In this document: piece by piece, positions 5,872-13,076 of the stretch
How the letters are laid out: every line of letters starts with the position of its first letter
How positions within the stretch are numbered: the first letter of the stretch is position 1
Virus record (IMG/VR): IMGVR_UViG_2778261393_000007
Coordinates: 1 to 13,076 of that record
Source of the DNA: a virus
Lineage: Duplodnaviria > Heunggongvirae > Uroviricota > Caudoviricetes
Strand: one strand, 5' to 3'
DNA: 13,076 bases
The notes under the pieces: generated by a model
Seen by the model: the letters and a program-made list of their open reading frames with translations, nothing else
The model's database searches: none
What the model was told of the DNA's origin: nothing
Translations under genes and position numbers: made by a program

Positions 5872-7640
5872 TTTTCATGGATTTTTGGCACAGCGGGTAA
5901 CCATTCATTAGCACTGTCAGCCAGCTCCATGTTGTAGCGCATTCCGACATTGGTCTTTGCCTTCTTATACTCAGCCCCATATTCTTTCATCACTTTTGGG
6001 AAATCTTTGCCAAAATTAGTTAGATTTAATGGCTTATCGAAACCATAAGCATCCATATATGCAAGATATGCATGGTAAAGATAAATTCGAGGGGCTCTTG
6101 GATATATATTCAGGTTTCCCATGAACATTCCTACAGCTTCACCAAGTTCGACAATATGGTTACAAAAAGCATATAGCGGATCAGTATGGCGTTTTACTTC
6201 CATTGCTTCTTCACCATCACGTTGTTCGAGCAGTAATGTTCTTGCTTTTTCGGGATCTGAAAAATTTACCAACAGCCTACGGACTATTACCGGAATTTCC
6301 GCTGCAATTTTTTTGGGTAAACATGTGTCCTTGTTTTCTTCCGCTATCGGATTATTGAACTGAAAAATAACCCTACGGCGTGAAATACCTCCCGCTCTTT
6401 CTGTAAAAACCATCGGTTTATTATTTGTTATCAAAACAACTGAGCGTAAGACAGTGGTGTATCTTTTTTCATATTTCGGGTTAATTTGCAGAGGATCCCC
6501 ACCTGTTATAGCTTTAATACCATTACCTTCACCAAAATATTTAGGTTGGTCCGGTAAAATAATCAGACTTTTACCAACTAGTTGCTCACGTCCACCAGCA
6601 TCATCTAACGCTTTCATATCACTGCCTGCGGTGTTCTGCTCACCCGCCAACATTCTGGCAATTTGAGTAAACATACTTTTACCACTTCCACCTTCGCCAG
6701 TTGCTTCAATGAATAATTGCCAGTCGTAGCGATTAGCCAAAACCATAAACAGAGCAGCACATATCCGCTTCATCTTTGATGAATCGTATCCTGCTGCATG
6801 TGACAGCCAACGATGAAAATGGGGCGCATGGTCATGAATATTTTCACCAGGCGCAGGTGGCGTATAATAAATTCCATTATGCGAAGTGATCCAGTGCTCT
6901 GGTGAATGAGGTAAAAATCTACCACTTGTTATGTCATAAACTCCATTTTCAAAAGGTATTATGGTGTCACTCTGTTCTCTCATTACGGGTACAGATATTT
7001 TTAAAGCATCAACCGCATTACTAATTGCCCGCTTACTGAAATTTGTCTTGTTTTTTTCGTAAATTGATACCATTTTACGACTCAACTCCATATCAGATAT
7101 TTTTTCCCACACTCCAGAACAGTATGCATAAGCAAAATTGTTACCCGGGTGAACAGCTATTTCCTCAAAGCATTCAGCCAAAAGTGAAGCTCGCTCGTTA
7201 TCCGCCATTCTGGAAAGAGAGATTTTGTGTTTTTTCTCAGTCCTTCCTGACAGAATATCCCCGCGCTCTGCCTGTTCGCGGATCCGTTGCAGGTAATCGC
7301 GCCAGTTCTCCGGTTCCCGGTCGGTGATGCCTTTGTATAATTTCGCCTCCTGTACGCCAGCCAGCGCCAGTTTTTCAGCGATAGCATTGATCTGGATTGG
7401 TTCGATCTCCCCCGCGAGATAGACACGCGCAAAGCGGCGTTCATCGTCGACAATGCGGATATTCACCAGGTCTGCCAGTTGCTTTGGCCCCAGGTAAACA
7501 GGTGGTACGTTATCGCCGTGTTTTCGTCCTTCGCTTTCAATCCAGTGTTGAGCATGGGGGTAAGCGTCCGTCCCGGCAAAAATGATTACCTCGGTGAATT
7601 TATCCTTCGGCTGATATTTTAAATTCGGTGCGTTTTTCAC
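5868..7640 (-). CDS. phage/satellite primase-helicase (Toprim-like N-terminus + P-loop NTPase), P4 alpha-like
   Basis: 590-aa ORF. Walker A GEGGSGKS; N-terminal TEVIIFAGTDA ... IRIVDDE consistent with a Toprim acidic motif. GTG start at 7640 with GGAGG SD; GTGA overlap with upstream stop. Confidence 0.88.
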   Translation of the reverse strand: MKNAPNLKYQPKDKFTEVIIFAGTDAYPHAQHWIESEGRKHGDNVPPVYLGPKQLADLVNIRIVDDERRFARVYLAGEIEPIQINAIAEKLALAGVQEAKLYKGITDREPENWRDYLQRIREQAERGDILSGRTEKKHKISLSRMADNERASLLAECFEEIAVHPGNNFAYAYCSGVWEKISDMELSRKMVSIYEKNKTNFSKRAISNAVDALKISVPVMREQSDTIIPFENGVYDITSGRFLPHSPEHWITSHNGIYYTPPAPGENIHDHAPHFHRWLSHAAGYDSSKMKRICAALFMVLANRYDWQLFIEATGEGGSGKSMFTQIARMLAGEQNTAGSDMKALDDAGGREQLVGKSLIILPDQPKYFGEGNGIKAITGGDPLQINPKYEKRYTTVLRSVVLITNNKPMVFTERAGGISRRRVIFQFNNPIAEENKDTCLPKKIAAEIPVIVRRLLVNFSDPEKARTLLLEQRDGEEAMEVKRHTDPLYAFCNHIVELGEAVGMFMGNLNIYPRAPRIYLYHAYLAYMDAYGFDKPLNLTNFGKDFPKVMKEYGAEYKKAKTNVGMRYNMELADSANEWLPAVPKIHEK

Positions 7641-9772: not shown

Positions 9773-10573
9773 TTACACATGGCTGTTTTCCTCCATGCGA
9801 CGGGCTAACCAACGCTGCGAAAGACGAATTAATTCAGCTTTCCGCTGGTGGTAGCCCTGGCCTAACTCAATCAGCGTGATATTGCTCTGCTCAAGGTAAG
9901 AAAGGTGCTCAAGCTGCAACGTGCTCATGTGGTCGCGTGGTTCGCCTGTGATGCCGTTCGCCTGCGCCCACTGTTTTGCAGTCATGCCACCCAGCACGAT
10001 ACGCGCCAGCATATTGGCTTCCGTGGTGTAGTGGTGCTGGAACGTGTTTTTACCCAGTTCAGCCCGGTACGCCTCCAGCGCGGCACACATTGGCTTAAAG
10101 TAGCTGGCAACGGTGATACGGGCTTTCAGTTCCCGGCGTAATGCTGCGGAACGCACTGGCGCTACCTTGTGTAGCTCCTCCTCGCATTTGATAAAGTACT
10201 GGCGAACGGCGCGGCCCTGTTCGGTACGTTCGACCATCGCCAGTTCTTTCGCCATGTTCACTGTGATGATGTACTCAAGAGCGGTTTGCTGGCGAGATTT
10301 TGCGCTCACCGGATCGGGTCGGCTCAAATATTCAACAACCTCATAATCCACGCCTTCCGTGAACCCGTATTCTTCAATGCGCCCCTTGATCCACGAACGG
10401 AAAACGCGCCCTACACCTAACGCCTTATGTAACGCTCTGGCGCTAACAATAGTGGTTTCACGCCCACCAATAACGCCGGAAATAACCGGGATAATTTCAC
10501 CAAAATTTTGCAGATTCTGGTTTTCAGGCCGAACGAAGCCCTGCCCCTGTACGGGCGTTTTTGGAAATTTCAT
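9773..10573 (-). CDS. AntA-like phage antirepressor family protein
   Basis: 266-aa ORF. ATG 10573 with AGGAG SD (8-nt spacing). SARALHKALGVGRVFRSWIKGRIEEYGFTEGVDYEV matches the AntA/AntB N-terminal domain pattern (by eye). Confidence 0.7.
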   Translation of the reverse strand: MKFPKTPVQGQGFVRPENQNLQNFGEIIPVISGVIGGRETTIVSARALHKALGVGRVFRSWIKGRIEEYGFTEGVDYEVVEYLSRPDPVSAKSRQQTALEYIITVNMAKELAMVERTEQGRAVRQYFIKCEEELHKVAPVRSAALRRELKARITVASYFKPMCAALEAYRAELGKNTFQHHYTTEANMLARIVLGGMTAKQWAQANGITGEPRDHMSTLQLEHLSYLEQSNITLIELGQGYHQRKAELIRLSQRWLARRMEENSHV

Positions 10574-10652
10574 AAAAAACTCCTGCTATCGAATCTGGTT
10601 AATTGCTGTTTGCTGGTGGATAGCTGGGGCGCCTGGTCCCGTAGCTGTTTTA

Positions 10653-10871
10653 TCAGGCTGATGTGTTTCGGCGTTCTTCCAGCCAGCGATTAATCTCTAC
10701 CGCATCGAATGCAGTGCTTTTCTCACCCAGTTTGATGGGCTTAGGCATCTTCCCGCTACGTACCCAACGATCGAGCGTTGATAAGCTGGTACCCAGCAAT
10801 TCAGCCAGGCGATAGCGGCGGATATAGCCAGTTGCAGGGATTGCGGTTTGAAGTATTGGTTGGTTTTTCAT
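10653..10871 (-). CDS. alpA: AlpA-family transcriptional regulator / excisionase-like protein
   Basis: YRLAELLGTSLSTLDRWVRSGKMPKPIKLGEKSTAFDAVEINRWLEER is the classic AlpA HTH signature. Start chosen at ATG 10871 (72 aa); alternatives ATG 10880 or ORF-track 10964. Confidence 0.85.
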   Translation of the reverse strand: MKNQPILQTAIPATGYIRRYRLAELLGTSLSTLDRWVRSGKMPKPIKLGEKSTAFDAVEINRWLEERRNTSA

Positions 10872-10983
10872 ATGCCCCATTACCTTTGTTGTTGGTTTGT
10901 GATTTGTAATAGGGGCATTAAATAACAAATGAAATGATGTGTGTGTGAGTTTTAGAAAAAACACTGTGACTTTTCTTATTTCA

Positions 10984-11766
10984 CTATCTAAAACGCTCTC
11001 GCCAGCTTTTCCAAGTGTTCTTATCTGGTTGTGGGATTACAATGCCTTTTTGAGCACCTATTTGTGCAATTTTTTTATTTAACTTGTTAGGCGGCAAAGA
11101 TATTATCTCATTGTCTGTTAACCCGGCAATTCTTAATAATCCATATATCATTTTAAATTGATGTATTGTTAATCTTGGTAACTTGTGATTTTCTTTTTTT
11201 ATAGTGTTGTTTATGGAGTAAATTGGAAATCCATTTGTTATTGATTTATAAAGGTTGTCAATGTGCTCTCTGGTTATTAATAATGAATCAGGTGTAATCT
11301 TAATGTTGCCGCTTGTTTTTGCATGGCATGAAAAAATAAATGTGGGATTCGCAGTGCGACGTGAAAGCGGTATGGATGTATTCATAGAGATAGTTTTGTT
11401 TCTTACTATAGTCTCTTGAATATCAAAAACTCCAGAAACCTTTGCCTCAAAAATAACACCATTTTCTTTTATTTCATCACTATATTCATGAATAATTATG
11501 CCAAGAGAGGAAATTTCTTTTTTGATGAGAAAAGAAATAAAATCAATATAGTCTTCATCCTTTGGCCATGTAAAATCACGATAACCAAAATACCCCTCAC
11601 AGTAAGCATTTTTTATTTTTGTGGCAAAATTAATTCTGTTAATATCCTGCCAATGCCATAAATCATCTATTTCACATTCTAAAATTTGAGCTGCTCTATC
11701 TAAAGAGCAGAATTCTAATGGAGGTAATTGTTTTTTTTGCCATATTGTTTCATTAATATTTGTCAT
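10984..11766 (-). CDS. hypothetical protein, AT-rich orphan cargo gene (260 aa)
   Basis: Uninterrupted 260-aa ORF between int and alpA in the same orientation. Strikingly AT-rich by eye (roughly 30% GC versus about 50% in flanking genes; not computed). N/K/I-rich; no family recognised; weak SD. Confidence 0.65.
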   Translation of the reverse strand: MTNINETIWQKKQLPPLEFCSLDRAAQILECEIDDLWHWQDINRINFATKIKNAYCEGYFGYRDFTWPKDEDYIDFISFLIKKEISSLGIIIHEYSDEIKENGVIFEAKVSGVFDIQETIVRNKTISMNTSIPLSRRTANPTFIFSCHAKTSGNIKITPDSLLITREHIDNLYKSITNGFPIYSINNTIKKENHKLPRLTIHQFKMIYGLLRIAGLTDNEIISLPPNKLNKKIAQIGAQKGIVIPQPDKNTWKSWRERFR

Positions 11767-11822
11767 GATTGCACTACCGTTATGAAAAAATATATTCGTT
11801 AATGAATTAGCCTTAATGTCTA

Positions 11823-13076
11823 TTATTTATTAGATTGCGTGATGTCAGAACATATCATGTTTTCTAAATTCACCAGCAAATCAGTCCACTGTGCCAGCGC
11901 CGCTTTGCGCTCATCAAAATATTGATGGCGGTTATAAATGCCCTCTACGCCTTTTATGCGGTGGTTAAGGCATCGTTCAGCAACGATCGGGTCAACTCCC
12001 AATGCTGCTAAATGTGTTCGTGCTGTTCGCCGGAAGTCGTGAATTGTAAAGTTGGGGACGTTCGGCATTTCTGCTCTGACTTTTGCCAATGCAACAGGAA
12101 GGGTGCTTTCCTGGATGTGAGGGATCATTCTGTGCTGCATTTTTCTGGCAGGTAATACCCATGCGCTATTGCATGAAAATGTGTGCAATTCTCGCAACCA
12201 TTCTATGGTCGCTGGTGGTAATGGTATGTCGATAGCATCGCCATTTTTAGTTCGTTGTTCTGGTAGATGCCAAATCGCGCCATCTAAGTCGAATTCATCC
12301 CACCTGGCGGCGCATAATTCCATTTTTCTGACACACAATGCTAAGAGCAACTTAAAGGTTAATTCGTTCTGGCGGCTGAATCCTTTGGCTTTACGCATGG
12401 CCTGAAAAAATTGGATTAATTCGTCACGGTTCAGCCAGCGATCACGAGATAATTCTTTCCCACCAGCATCTGATACTTCAAAAGCTGAGCAGGGGTTAAC
12501 CTCCAAAGCAAGGCGTTTAATACCGTAGTCAAATATTCGACGTGTCCACCGAAGAACGTCAGTAGCAATTGTTGGAGCGCCTCTATCAACAATGCTTTTA
12601 AGCATGGCATCAATATGGCGTGGTTTTACATCTTCAACCTTCATGTGGCCTATGGCAGGATTTATGTCTTTATCAATGCGCCTGCGGAGAATATCTGGGT
12701 GTTTCCATCGGGGAAGTATTTGCCGTGCAAAGTATTCGGCGGCAAGTTCAGAAACATGCAGCGCGTTTTTTTCAGCTTCTATTTTTGCCAGTGCTTCGGC
12801 TTTACGCTGCTGTTTTTCTGCGGCTACGTCATATCCCAAAGCAACTCGTGCGGAAAGTTCTTTTGCCAGTTCCCTGGCTTTTGATAACGATAATTCAGAA
12901 TATGAACCAATAAGCATGGCACGAGATTTTCCTGCCAGTTTATATCGAAACCGCCATGTCGGGGATCTATCCACCTCTCTATACCGGAGATATAGCCCAC
13001 CACCATCAGCACGACCTTCGAAATGTTCTCCGGCTTTTATCCATGCGCGGATCTGCATATCTGTGAGTTTTGGCAT
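11823..13076 (-). CDS. int: P4-type tyrosine integrase (DUF4102-like arm-binding N-terminus + catalytic domain)
   Basis: 417-aa ORF with ATG at 13074-13076. N-terminal GGGLYLRYREVDRSPTWRFRYKLAGKSR and C-terminal HDFRRTARTHLAALG...YNRHQYFDERK match P4/CP4-57-type integrases. Its RBS and the attachment site/tRNA lie beyond the window. Confidence 0.92.
   Translation of the reverse strand: MPKLTDMQIRAWIKAGEHFEGRADGGGLYLRYREVDRSPTWRFRYKLAGKSRAMLIGSYSELSLSKARELAKELSARVALGYDVAAEKQQRKAEALAKIEAEKNALHVSELAAEYFARQILPRWKHPDILRRRIDKDINPAIGHMKVEDVKPRHIDAMLKSIVDRGAPTIATDVLRWTRRIFDYGIKRLALEVNPCSAFEVSDAGGKELSRDRWLNRDELIQFFQAMRKAKGFSRQNELTFKLLLALCVRKMELCAARWDEFDLDGAIWHLPEQRTKNGDAIDIPLPPATIEWLRELHTFSCNSAWVLPARKMQHRMIPHIQESTLPVALAKVRAEMPNVPNFTIHDFRRTARTHLAALGVDPIVAERCLNHRIKGVEGIYNRHQYFDERKAALAQWTDLLVNLENMICSDITQSNK

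What the first reader, a model, noticed from the sequence alone, without database searches (positions are those of the whole stretch)
10984..11766. Strongly AT-rich 260-aa orphan gene inserted between int and alpA
Seen: a 783-nt ORF whose base composition (by eye about 30% GC) differs sharply from the flanking int and alpA genes. It has no recognisable catalytic motif, is N/K/I-rich, and has a weak SD. In P4-like elements int and alpA are usually close neighbours, so a compositionally foreign gene here looks like a secondary insertion. Inference: single-gene cargo, for example an abortive-infection or defence protein, or alternatively a satellite repressor.
Basis: partly seen in the sequence, partly recalled or inferred. 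Interest (0 to 1): 0.6.

Follow-up and report, generated by a model that had tools for sequence, protein, structure and literature searches.

The report
Unnamed DNA-binding gene between int and alpA
The AT-rich gene is real but is not an orphan or a chance insertion: it belongs to a large, unnamed family of predicted DNA-binding proteins that sits between the integrase and alpA genes in every related phage-satellite island sampled, which makes it a testable candidate for the unknown switch that controls these islands.

Summary
The ORF at 10984-11766 (minus strand, 260 aa) has 31% GC, against 46% for int and 51% for alpA. The "orphan cargo insertion" reading does not hold.

An exhaustive profile search finds 391 family representatives. 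In 12 of 12 context look-ups, and in most other loci fetched, a family member lies int -> gene -> alpA on one strand. This is true across very divergent integrases, at least five integration sites and several enterobacterial genera. All sampled members are AT-poorer in reverse terms: each has lower GC than its flanks (mean -11 points), so low GC is a family trait.

The family has a conserved N-terminal MerR/Xis/AlpA-like winged helix, a barely alignable ferredoxin-like middle, and a helical C-terminal module. It has no enzymatic domain, no Pfam, NCBIfam or PADLOC match, and no full-length structural analogue.

Many relatives carry the Rfam "int-alpA RNA" just upstream of the gene; the window does not. 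A conserved palindrome follows the stop codon only in islands with this C-terminal type.

Related E. coli islands carry other family alleles or an unrelated 216-aa gene, so the slot varies but not freely.

Best reading: a satellite regulator or sensor acting on the alpA switch (confidence 0.4). Main rival: phage-interference cargo.

The parts
10984..11766 (-). 260-aa gene, a member of an unnamed protein family ('FAM') that sits between int and alpA
   Evidence: ORF and translation. 391 family representatives. AF2 model with mean pLDDT 82.9 from a 92-sequence alignment. Present at >=99.6% identity in 12 of 5426 complete E. coli genomes and annotated as hypothetical protein.
11626..11724 (-). 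Residues ~15-47: conserved N-terminal winged helix-turn-helix (PLEFCSLDRAAQILECEIDDLWHW); C20, R24, A25, L29, C31, D35 and H38 are at least 90% conserved
11287..11625 (-). Residues 48-160: poorly conserved central alpha/beta domain, ferredoxin-like in the model
11227..11286 (-). Residues 161-180: second conserved motif (LLITREHIDNLYKSITNG), a strand followed by a helix
   Evidence: Found in 137 of 155 retrieved family proteins. pLDDT is 93-95.
10987..11175 (-). Residues 198-260: 'type-1' C-terminal four-helix module (RLTIHQFKMIYGLLRIAGL...PQPDKNTWKSWRERFR)
   Evidence: pLDDT is 93-97. It is 52-61% identical to the closest homologues. Other family members carry different C-termini.
11767..11822 (-). 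56-nt AT-rich spacer between int and the gene; the Rfam int-alpA RNA found here in relatives is absent
   Evidence: RF02996 lies at this position in 9 related loci. There is no match in the window even at E<=1. Only the part next to the ribosome-binding site still resembles the relatives.
10947..10964 (.). Imperfect palindrome GAGTTTT-N4-AAAAACAC as written on the + strand (GTGTTTT-N4-AAAACTC on the coding strand), 20 nt after the stop codon and about 76 nt before the alpA ATG; candidate protein-binding site
   Evidence: The same motif (<=2 mismatches) lies within 60 nt of the stop codon in 9 of 10 islands with a type-1 C-terminus and in 0 of 10 with other C-termini. The background rate is 0.003 per 60 nt.
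10872..10918 (-). alpA leader hairpin of 12 pairs, whose 3' arm abuts the alpA AUG and covers the Shine-Dalgarno region
   Evidence: Seen in the centroid fold. An equivalent stem is present in relatives, with 3 compensatory pairs.
10653..10871 (-). alpA, the master activator of Gram-negative PICIs
   Evidence: Pfam Phage_AlpA E=7.4e-9. Its role is taken from PMC6092414.
11823..13076 (-). P4-type tyrosine integrase
   Evidence: Pfam Arm-DNA-bind_3, Phage_int_M and Phage_integrase. The island lies between yicC and dinD in E. coli.

Best explanation
The gene encodes a satellite-specific DNA-binding regulator or sensor that belongs to the int-alpA control module of a clade of enterobacterial phage satellites. 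These are PICI / P4-like islands that carry int, alpA, antA or Bro-N, DUF4222 and a primase.

Shown:
- The family is large.
- In every locus sampled it lies in the int -> gene -> alpA position.
- It has a conserved MerR/Xis/AlpA-type winged helix at the N-terminus, a poorly conserved central alpha/beta domain and a helical C-terminal module.
- It has no detectable enzymatic domain.

Inferred mechanism:
- The protein binds island DNA next to the alpA promoter and leader. The best candidate site is the palindrome at 10947-10964.
- The variable central domain senses a signal, most plausibly a helper-phage protein.
- In this way the protein sets when alpA, and with it excision and replication of the island, is switched on.
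- Different alleles and tandem paralogues would give different helper specificities.
- The family-wide low GC would reflect fast turnover and exchange of alleles, or xenogeneic silencing, rather than a recent insertion.
For: - Synteny: 12 of 12 context look-ups. Of 27 distinct family genes, 23 have a same-strand P4-type int directly upstream and 22 have alpA directly downstream. The remaining cases are cut contigs or int-less remnants.
- The integrases range from E=1e-289 to 1e-14 against the window's. The att sites include yicC, der, mipA, tRNA-Arg and tRNA-Pro.
- Spacing to alpA is mostly about 100-130 nt.
- No enzymatic or defence domain.
- A dedicated conserved upstream RNA element, RF02996, occurs in 9 family-bearing loci and in 0 of 5 family-lacking islands.
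- The palindrome after the stop codon tracks the C-terminal type and not the alpA type.
- The slot holds only this family, one other family, or nothing in the loci seen. This differs from the open diversity of a defence hotspot.
- The literature states that a global repressor in Gram-negative PICIs is unclear, and that alpA induction depends on the helper phage by an unknown route (PMC6092414).
Against: - There is no experimental evidence for any family member.
- Closely related islands do without the gene. They have the 216-aa gene instead. In EcCICFT073 alpA appears to follow int directly, as read from PMC6092414. So the gene is not essential for the basic satellite cycle.
- The palindrome sits 20 nt from the C-terminal coding region, so their co-occurrence could be plain linkage.
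- Most relatives already carry C4/isrK-type RNA immunity elements, so a protein repressor is not obviously needed.
- Low GC, a poorly conserved middle and tandem paralogues are also typical of defence or interference genes.
Confidence: 0.4

Rival explanations
1. It is accessory phage-interference or defence cargo. The variable central domain would recognise a component of an infecting phage, and the protein would block phage or rival-satellite development, for example by binding phage DNA or titrating a phage regulator. It would benefit the host or the island without controlling the island's own cycle.
For: - GC is 10-17 points below the backbone in the window and lower than the flanks in every homologue.
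- The middle is poorly conserved and two islands carry tandem paralogues.
- The gene is dispensable, because related islands carry another gene in the slot.
- PICIs and P4-like satellites are known carriers of immune systems (PMC11364771; PMC9122126).
- A few family members give marginal hits to the PADLOC candidate PDC-S05 (best E=5e-4). A member of that candidate family was reported to protect against T4, T5 and T7 (bioRxiv 10.1101/2024.09.26.614923).
Against: - The window protein has no PADLOC hit even at E<=10. The PDC-S05 hits are marginal, involve at most a handful of the 92 members, and the RhuM Pfam domain of PDC-S05 is not detected in any member.
- No effector domain is present.
- The family was never seen outside the int-alpA slot in the sampled loci, whereas defence genes usually move between many contexts.
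- No homologue is found in 50,697 phage records.
- The described 5' defence hotspot of PICIs is between att and int.
Confidence: 0.27
2. It is a recombination-directionality or integrase accessory factor. The Xis-like N-terminal domain would bind att arm DNA and modulate Int-mediated excision or integration.
For: - The gene lies immediately downstream of int on the same strand, overlapping the int stop codon in L028 and L033.
Against: - As general knowledge, directionality factors are usually small (about 50-100 aa) and co-evolve with their integrase. Here the N-terminus stays nearly constant while the integrases diverge to E=1e-14.
- AlpA or Vis already fills the Xis-like role in these elements (PMC6092414).
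- Islands with very similar integrases lack the gene.
Confidence: 0.1
3. It is a silenced or decaying passenger ORF with no current function.
For: - The gene is very AT-rich, has a weak Shine-Dalgarno sequence and no sigma-70-like site upstream on its own strand.
- The upstream RNA element found in relatives has been lost.
- This allele is rare, in 12 of 5426 genomes.
Against: - The gene is full-length with both conserved termini intact, and shows no frameshifts in 12 genomes at >=99.6% identity.
- A 260-codon open frame at this composition is very unlikely without selection.
- Family-wide conservation of specific residues.
Confidence: 0.05

Closest known systems
AlpA / Vis / excisionase winged-helix proteins (Pfam PF05930 Phage_AlpA, PF12728 HTH_17)
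   Same: The N-terminal ~35 residues align in register with the AlpA helix-turn-helix, including the conserved Trp of the recognition helix. The fold resembles Xis and AlpA structures. Both are encoded next to int in the same islands.
   Different: The protein is four times larger, with two extra domains. No Pfam match is found for the window protein or for 92 family members. It has two nearly invariant cysteines and a histidine inside the HTH.
MerR-family one-component regulators
   Different: In the model a beta-strand domain follows the wHTH directly, with no long coiled-coil dimerisation helix. Only 1 of 92 members touches Pfam MerR_1, at E=0.002.
Stl / Rpr master repressors of Gram-positive PICIs (SaPIs)
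   Same: Both are encoded next to int in a phage satellite. Both have a DNA-binding head and a highly variable remainder. Allelic diversity could set helper specificity (role of Stl as described in PMC6092414).
   Different: Stl is transcribed divergently from the genes it represses, whereas this gene is co-directional with int and alpA. No sequence comparison with Stl was made here. Binding of a phage protein is untested.
Rfam RF02996 'int-alpA RNA'
   Same: It marks the same int-alpA interval of the same islands. In 9 loci it ends about 20-25 nt before the start codon of a family member.
   Different: It is an RNA element, not the protein, and it is absent from this window. Its name hides the fact that a protein gene lies between it and alpA.
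Defence hotspots of P4-like satellites and PICIs
   Same: The locus varies between otherwise related satellites, and its content is compositionally distinct.
   Different: The described hotspots are int to psu/delta/sid in P4, att to int and the 3' end in PICIs, and next to pri. The slot here holds mainly one protein family rather than many unrelated systems.

Membership tests
AlpA / HTH_17 excisionase-type wHTH (PF05930, PF12728) | Match to the Pfam profile at or above the gathering score | tested here: not met
   No hit for the window protein at E<=1. None among 92 family members at E<=0.01.
AlpA / HTH_17 excisionase-type wHTH (PF05930, PF12728) | Winged-helix fold with the recognition helix in register | tested here: inconclusive
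MerR family regulators | Pfam MerR / MerR_1 profile match | tested here: not met
   No match for the window protein. 1 of 92 members matches at E=0.0022, below the cut-off.
MerR family regulators | wHTH followed by a long coiled-coil dimerisation helix | tested here: not met
Known or candidate anti-phage defence systems (PADLOC-DB v2) | Profile match to a defence protein model | tested here: not met
   0 families at E<=10 for the window protein. Only marginal PDC-S05 hits (best E=4.6e-4) in a few of the 92 relatives.
Stl/Rpr-type PICI master repressor | Transcribed divergently from the lytic/replication operon it represses | tested here: not met
   Same strand as int, alpA and the downstream genes in all loci.
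Stl/Rpr-type PICI master repressor | Repression lifted by binding a helper-phage protein | not testable with these tools
   This needs genetics or biochemistry.
Gram-negative PICI / P4-like satellite (the host island) | int + alpA + primase-replicase, no virion or lysis genes, about 10-15 kb, own att site | tested here: met
   int, AlpA, AntA, DUF4222, D5-type primase and ProQ are found in the window. The island lies between yicC and dinD in the matching E. coli genome and carries no annotated structural genes there. No Pfam structural-protein family was found among the window ORFs scanned, although one ORF matches DUF2213.
Rfam RF02996 int-alpA RNA (presence in this window) | Covariance-model match between int and the gene | tested here: not met
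   No match at E<=1 in the whole window. Nine relatives score 48.6-61.8 bits, against a gathering score of 35.8.

The most novel reading that the evidence does not exclude
The family is the missing helper-phage sensor of Gram-negative satellites and works like Stl. The conserved winged helix, together with the type-1 C-terminal module, would hold the alpA promoter or leader shut at the GAGTTTT/AAAACTC palindrome. The variable central domain would bind a specific helper-phage protein and release the DNA. Each allele or tandem paralogue would then define which helper phages can induce the island. The Rfam int-alpA RNA would be the gene's own regulatory leader.
Probability: 0.2. Interest if true: 0.8.

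Novelty: new variant of a known kind. Interest (0 to 1): 0.5.

Why it matters
How Gram-negative phage-inducible islands sense their helper phage and switch on alpA is an open question. [quoted passage not shown]

This work gives a concrete candidate that can be tested directly:
- a large, unannotated family of predicted DNA-binding proteins, found immediately upstream of alpA in every locus sampled;
- a poorly conserved candidate sensor domain in the middle of the protein;
- a candidate operator just after the stop codon;
- a link to an orphan Rfam motif.

It also shows that RF02996, 'int-alpA RNA', lies just upstream of this protein gene in every locus where it was found, and so may be its leader. 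That changes how the motif should be studied.

If the protein turns out to be interference cargo instead, it would be a new single-gene system with no known effector domain.

Tried and rejected
- YfjH, the gene between intA and alpA in E. coli K-12 CP4-57, is on the opposite strand and shows no visible sequence resemblance to the family.
- The 216-aa alternative occupant of the slot (WP_001059729 and WP_000608239) was tested for a shared C-terminal module. hmmsearch gave E about 0.2 and hhalign a probability of 1.7%, so no relationship is supported.
- I considered that the window gene might be a fusion of the tandem paralogues seen in Leclercia and Pluralibacter, prompted by blastn collinearity. 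I dropped this because the C-terminus is equally similar to both paralogues, at 59-61%.
- The first structure prediction, with 5 sequences, was unusable (pLDDT 40).
- Foldseek against the PDB and against BFVD viral structures gave nothing at E<=0.001. The afdb50 library was not available.
- A profile search against PDB sequences gave only spurious repeat hits to designer PPR proteins.
- PHROGs gave only function-less marginal hits.
- tblastn against 50,697 phage records found no match.
- The genome-contig scan returned only 3 loci, because the pattern derived from the alignment was narrow.
- The generic repeat and promoter/terminator scans around the gene gave nothing decisive. There is no intrinsic terminator between int, the gene and alpA on the coding strand.
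- The Fillol-Salom 2022 Cell paper and the supplement of Weinberg 2017 are not held, so their exact statements could not be checked.

Full report
**1. The observation**

The window is a ~13-kb integrase-bearing island read on the minus strand. In transcription order it carries:
- int (11823-13076);
- the ORF in question (10984-11766, 260 aa);
- alpA (10653-10871; Pfam Phage_AlpA);
- an AntA-type gene (9773-10573);
- a DUF4222 gene;
- a D5-type primase (5868-7640);
- a ProQ/FinO-like gene and others.

In complete E. coli genomes the island lies between yicC and dinD. Its make-up is that of a Gram-negative PICI / P4-related satellite.

The ORF has 31.2% GC (GC3 24.5%), against 45.7% for int and 50.7% for alpA. 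The two spacers around it are equally AT-rich. The protein is rich in N, K, I, F and Y: 38.8%, against about 22% in its neighbours. A 260-codon open frame at this composition has a chance probability of about 2.5e-10. Homologues exist at E=1e-38 to 1e-41.

**2. It is not an orphan**

The word-indexed search found only six clusters. An exhaustive HMMER search with a profile of those sequences found 391 representatives (50%-identity clusters) at E<=1e-3, and 157 at E<=1e-10. These are mostly proteins of 260-350 aa that match at both ends.

The family has no Pfam, NCBIfam or PADLOC model and no named PHROG. Conservation is strongly uneven:
- Residues ~11-50 are the best conserved. C20, R24, A25, L29, C31, D35 and H38 are at least 90% conserved.
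- Residues 51-160 are barely alignable.
- A second motif at 161-180 (LxITRxDIExIY..G) is found in 137 of 155 proteins.
- The last ~65 residues form a module shared by many, but not all, members.

**3. Position**

All twelve context look-ups, including distant members near the bottom of the hit list, showed the same arrangement. A P4-type integrase (Arm-DNA-bind_3 / Phage_int_M / Phage_integrase) comes first, then the family member, then alpA, all on one strand.

I then pooled these with the IMG/VR and genome loci and scanned them with my own HMMs. Of 27 distinct family genes, 23 have such an int directly upstream and 22 have alpA directly downstream. The exceptions are contigs cut at the gene or int-less remnants beside tRNA-Arg.

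The integrases range from nearly identical to E=1e-14 against the window's. Integration sites include yicC, der, mipA, tRNA-Arg and tRNA-Pro. Hosts include Escherichia, Leclercia, Raoultella, Pluralibacter, Pectobacterium and Serratia. Two islands carry two paralogues in tandem.

Every family gene has lower GC than its flanking int and alpA (mean -10.9 points, range -2 to -17). Low GC is therefore a property of the family, not a sign of a recent insertion into this island.

**4. The slot varies, but within limits**

E. coli islands at the same yicC site with a 76%-identical int carry one of the following:
- an unrelated 216-aa gene that overlaps the int stop codon;
- other, very different family alleles of 321 and 281 aa, confirmed with the family HMM at E=1e-39 and 1e-22.

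Counts among 5426 complete genomes are:
- window allele: 12;
- the other two family alleles: 77 and 38;
- one type of the 216-aa gene: 112.

Against such a relative, homology breaks at about 10845 and 11870. The exchanged block therefore runs from the 3' end of int into the first codons of alpA.

**5. Structure**

With the 92-sequence alignment, AlphaFold2 gave a confident model (mean pLDDT 82.9, pTM 0.68). It has:
- an N-terminal winged helix (pLDDT >94);
- a central alpha/beta domain;
- a strand-helix motif;
- a four-helix C-terminal module (pLDDT 93-97).

No enzymatic domain is detectable. The only function-bearing feature is therefore a predicted DNA-binding head.

**6. Linked non-coding elements**

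(a) *The int-alpA RNA.* In nine family-bearing loci the Rfam motif RF02996 ('int-alpA RNA') lies between the int stop and the family gene, ending about 20-25 nt before its start codon. It is absent from five family-lacking islands at the same site. It is also absent from this window, where the spacer is only 56 nt. In every locus where it was found, the motif lies just upstream of this protein gene rather than of alpA, so it may be that gene's leader.

(b) *The palindrome.* Right after the stop codon, islands whose family member has the type-1 C-terminal module carry the palindrome GAGTTTT-N(1-6)-AAAACTC. It is present with <=2 mismatches in 9 of 10 such islands and in 0 of 10 islands with other C-termini. 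The background rate is 0.003 per 60 nt.
- In the window it lies at 10947-10964, 20 nt after the stop codon and about 76 nt before the alpA ATG.
- It does not follow the alpA type. L002 and L039/L040 share an almost identical alpA leader but differ in both the C-terminal type and the palindrome.
- The half-site sequence itself is conserved, rather than just the ability to pair. That favours a protein-binding site, although physical linkage to the adjacent coding region is a trivial alternative.

(c) *The alpA leader.* It folds into a hairpin (10872-10918) whose 3' arm covers the ribosome-binding region. Relatives keep the stem, with some compensatory changes.

**7. Interpretation**

I rank a regulatory or sensor role in the int-alpA switch first (0.4). 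The supporting points are:
- the family was found only in this slot in the loci sampled;
- the DNA-binding head stays conserved while int and alpA diverge;
- there is no effector domain;
- the gene has its own conserved upstream RNA;
- there is a linked candidate operator.

Gram-negative PICIs are induced through AlpA. [quoted passage not shown] A protein with a constant DNA-binding head and a poorly conserved middle is what a helper-sensing regulator like the Stl repressors of SaPIs would look like. Membership of the Stl kind is not claimed, because the orientation differs and phage-protein binding is untested.

The main rival (0.27) is interference or defence cargo. In its favour are the low GC, the poorly conserved middle, the paralogues and the fact that the gene is dispensable. 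Against it:
- there is no defence signature;
- the PDC-S05 hits are only marginal;
- there are no homologues in phage records;
- the family was not seen in other contexts;
- the published 5' defence hotspot of PICIs lies between att and int.

An integrase-accessory (Xis-like) role (0.1) and a functionless passenger (0.05) are less likely.

**8. Caveats**

- All functional statements are inferences from sequence, a predicted structure and gene context.
- The context sample is biased toward what the look-up tools return.
- The wHTH assignment is weak in score, although consistent across methods.
- Most relatives also carry C4/isrK-type RNA immunity elements, which this window lacks. Control of these islands is therefore likely layered and may differ between them.

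**9. Verdict**

The finding is a real and clearly delimited gene, and the composition contrast is correctly observed. The 'orphan secondary insertion' reading is not supported. The gene is a rare, unusually AT-rich allele of a large, unnamed, satellite-specific family that is probably regulatory. That is moderately interesting, because it offers a testable handle on how these satellites are switched on and reassigns an orphan Rfam motif.

Noticed in passing
L039:3372-3438, L013:1594-1660, L017:5914-5979, L004:9914-9980 and five other loci; absent from window 11767-11822: The Rfam motif RF02996 ('int-alpA RNA') always lies between the int stop and the start of the unnamed family gene. It is absent from family-lacking islands and from this window. 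It consists of an outer stem enclosing two hairpins followed by a U-rich stretch, so it may be a terminator or attenuator ahead of the gene.
   Followed up: partly
window 10872-10918 (minus strand): The alpA 5' leader forms a 12-pair hairpin whose 3' arm abuts the AUG and covers the Shine-Dalgarno region. Equivalent stems with some compensatory changes occur upstream of alpA in relatives, including islands that lack the family gene. This suggests translational control of alpA.
   Followed up: partly
window 10947-10964: The palindrome GAGTTTT-N-AAAACTC lies just after the stop codon and is conserved only in islands whose family member has the same C-terminal module. It is independent of the alpA type.
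   Followed up: yes
whole window; compare L002:13027-13254, L004:12620-12847, L017:8443-8670: Most related islands carry isrK and C4 antisense RNA genes (P1/P4-type RNA immunity) downstream of the antirepressor genes. This window has no match to either, even at E<=1, although closely matching E. coli islands carry an annotated Icd-like gene in the corresponding region.
   Followed up: partly
L007:3700-4350, L008:3090-3740, L038:2791-3441, L041:2775-3425: An unrelated 216-aa hypothetical protein (WP_001059729 / WP_000608239) occupies the int-alpA slot in other yicC-site islands. One type is present in 112 of 5426 genomes. It overlaps the int stop codon by 4 nt and leaves a gap of about 390-470 nt before alpA. 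Its function is unknown.
   Followed up: partly
L002:10001-11569 and L003:10001-11572: Leclercia and Pluralibacter islands carry two tandem paralogues of the family. They share the C-terminal module, but their N-termini are only partly similar and their middles are unrelated.
   Followed up: partly
window 11626-11724 (residues C20, C31, H38): Two cysteines and a histidine inside the predicted helix-turn-helix are at least 90% conserved across 92 family members. This is unusual for Xis/AlpA-type domains and might indicate metal or redox dependence.
   Followed up: no
window 1-5600 versus L001: The distal half of the island is mosaic relative to the E. coli EcPF14 copy, matching only in patches at 65-93% identity. 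It encodes a DUF3800 protein (1-762, + strand), an HTH_17-like 174-aa protein (2099-2623), a DUF2213 protein (2630-3301) and a ProQ/FinO protein (4649-5227). In EcPF14 the distal end instead carries a 662-aa protein annotated as 'RNA-binding domain-containing'.
   Followed up: no
window 9773-10657 versus many E. coli genomes: The antA gene matches many genomes at about 95% identity, and the match ends just inside the 3' end of alpA (about 10657). The int / family gene / alpA block is therefore exchanged as a unit relative to the rest of the island.
   Followed up: no
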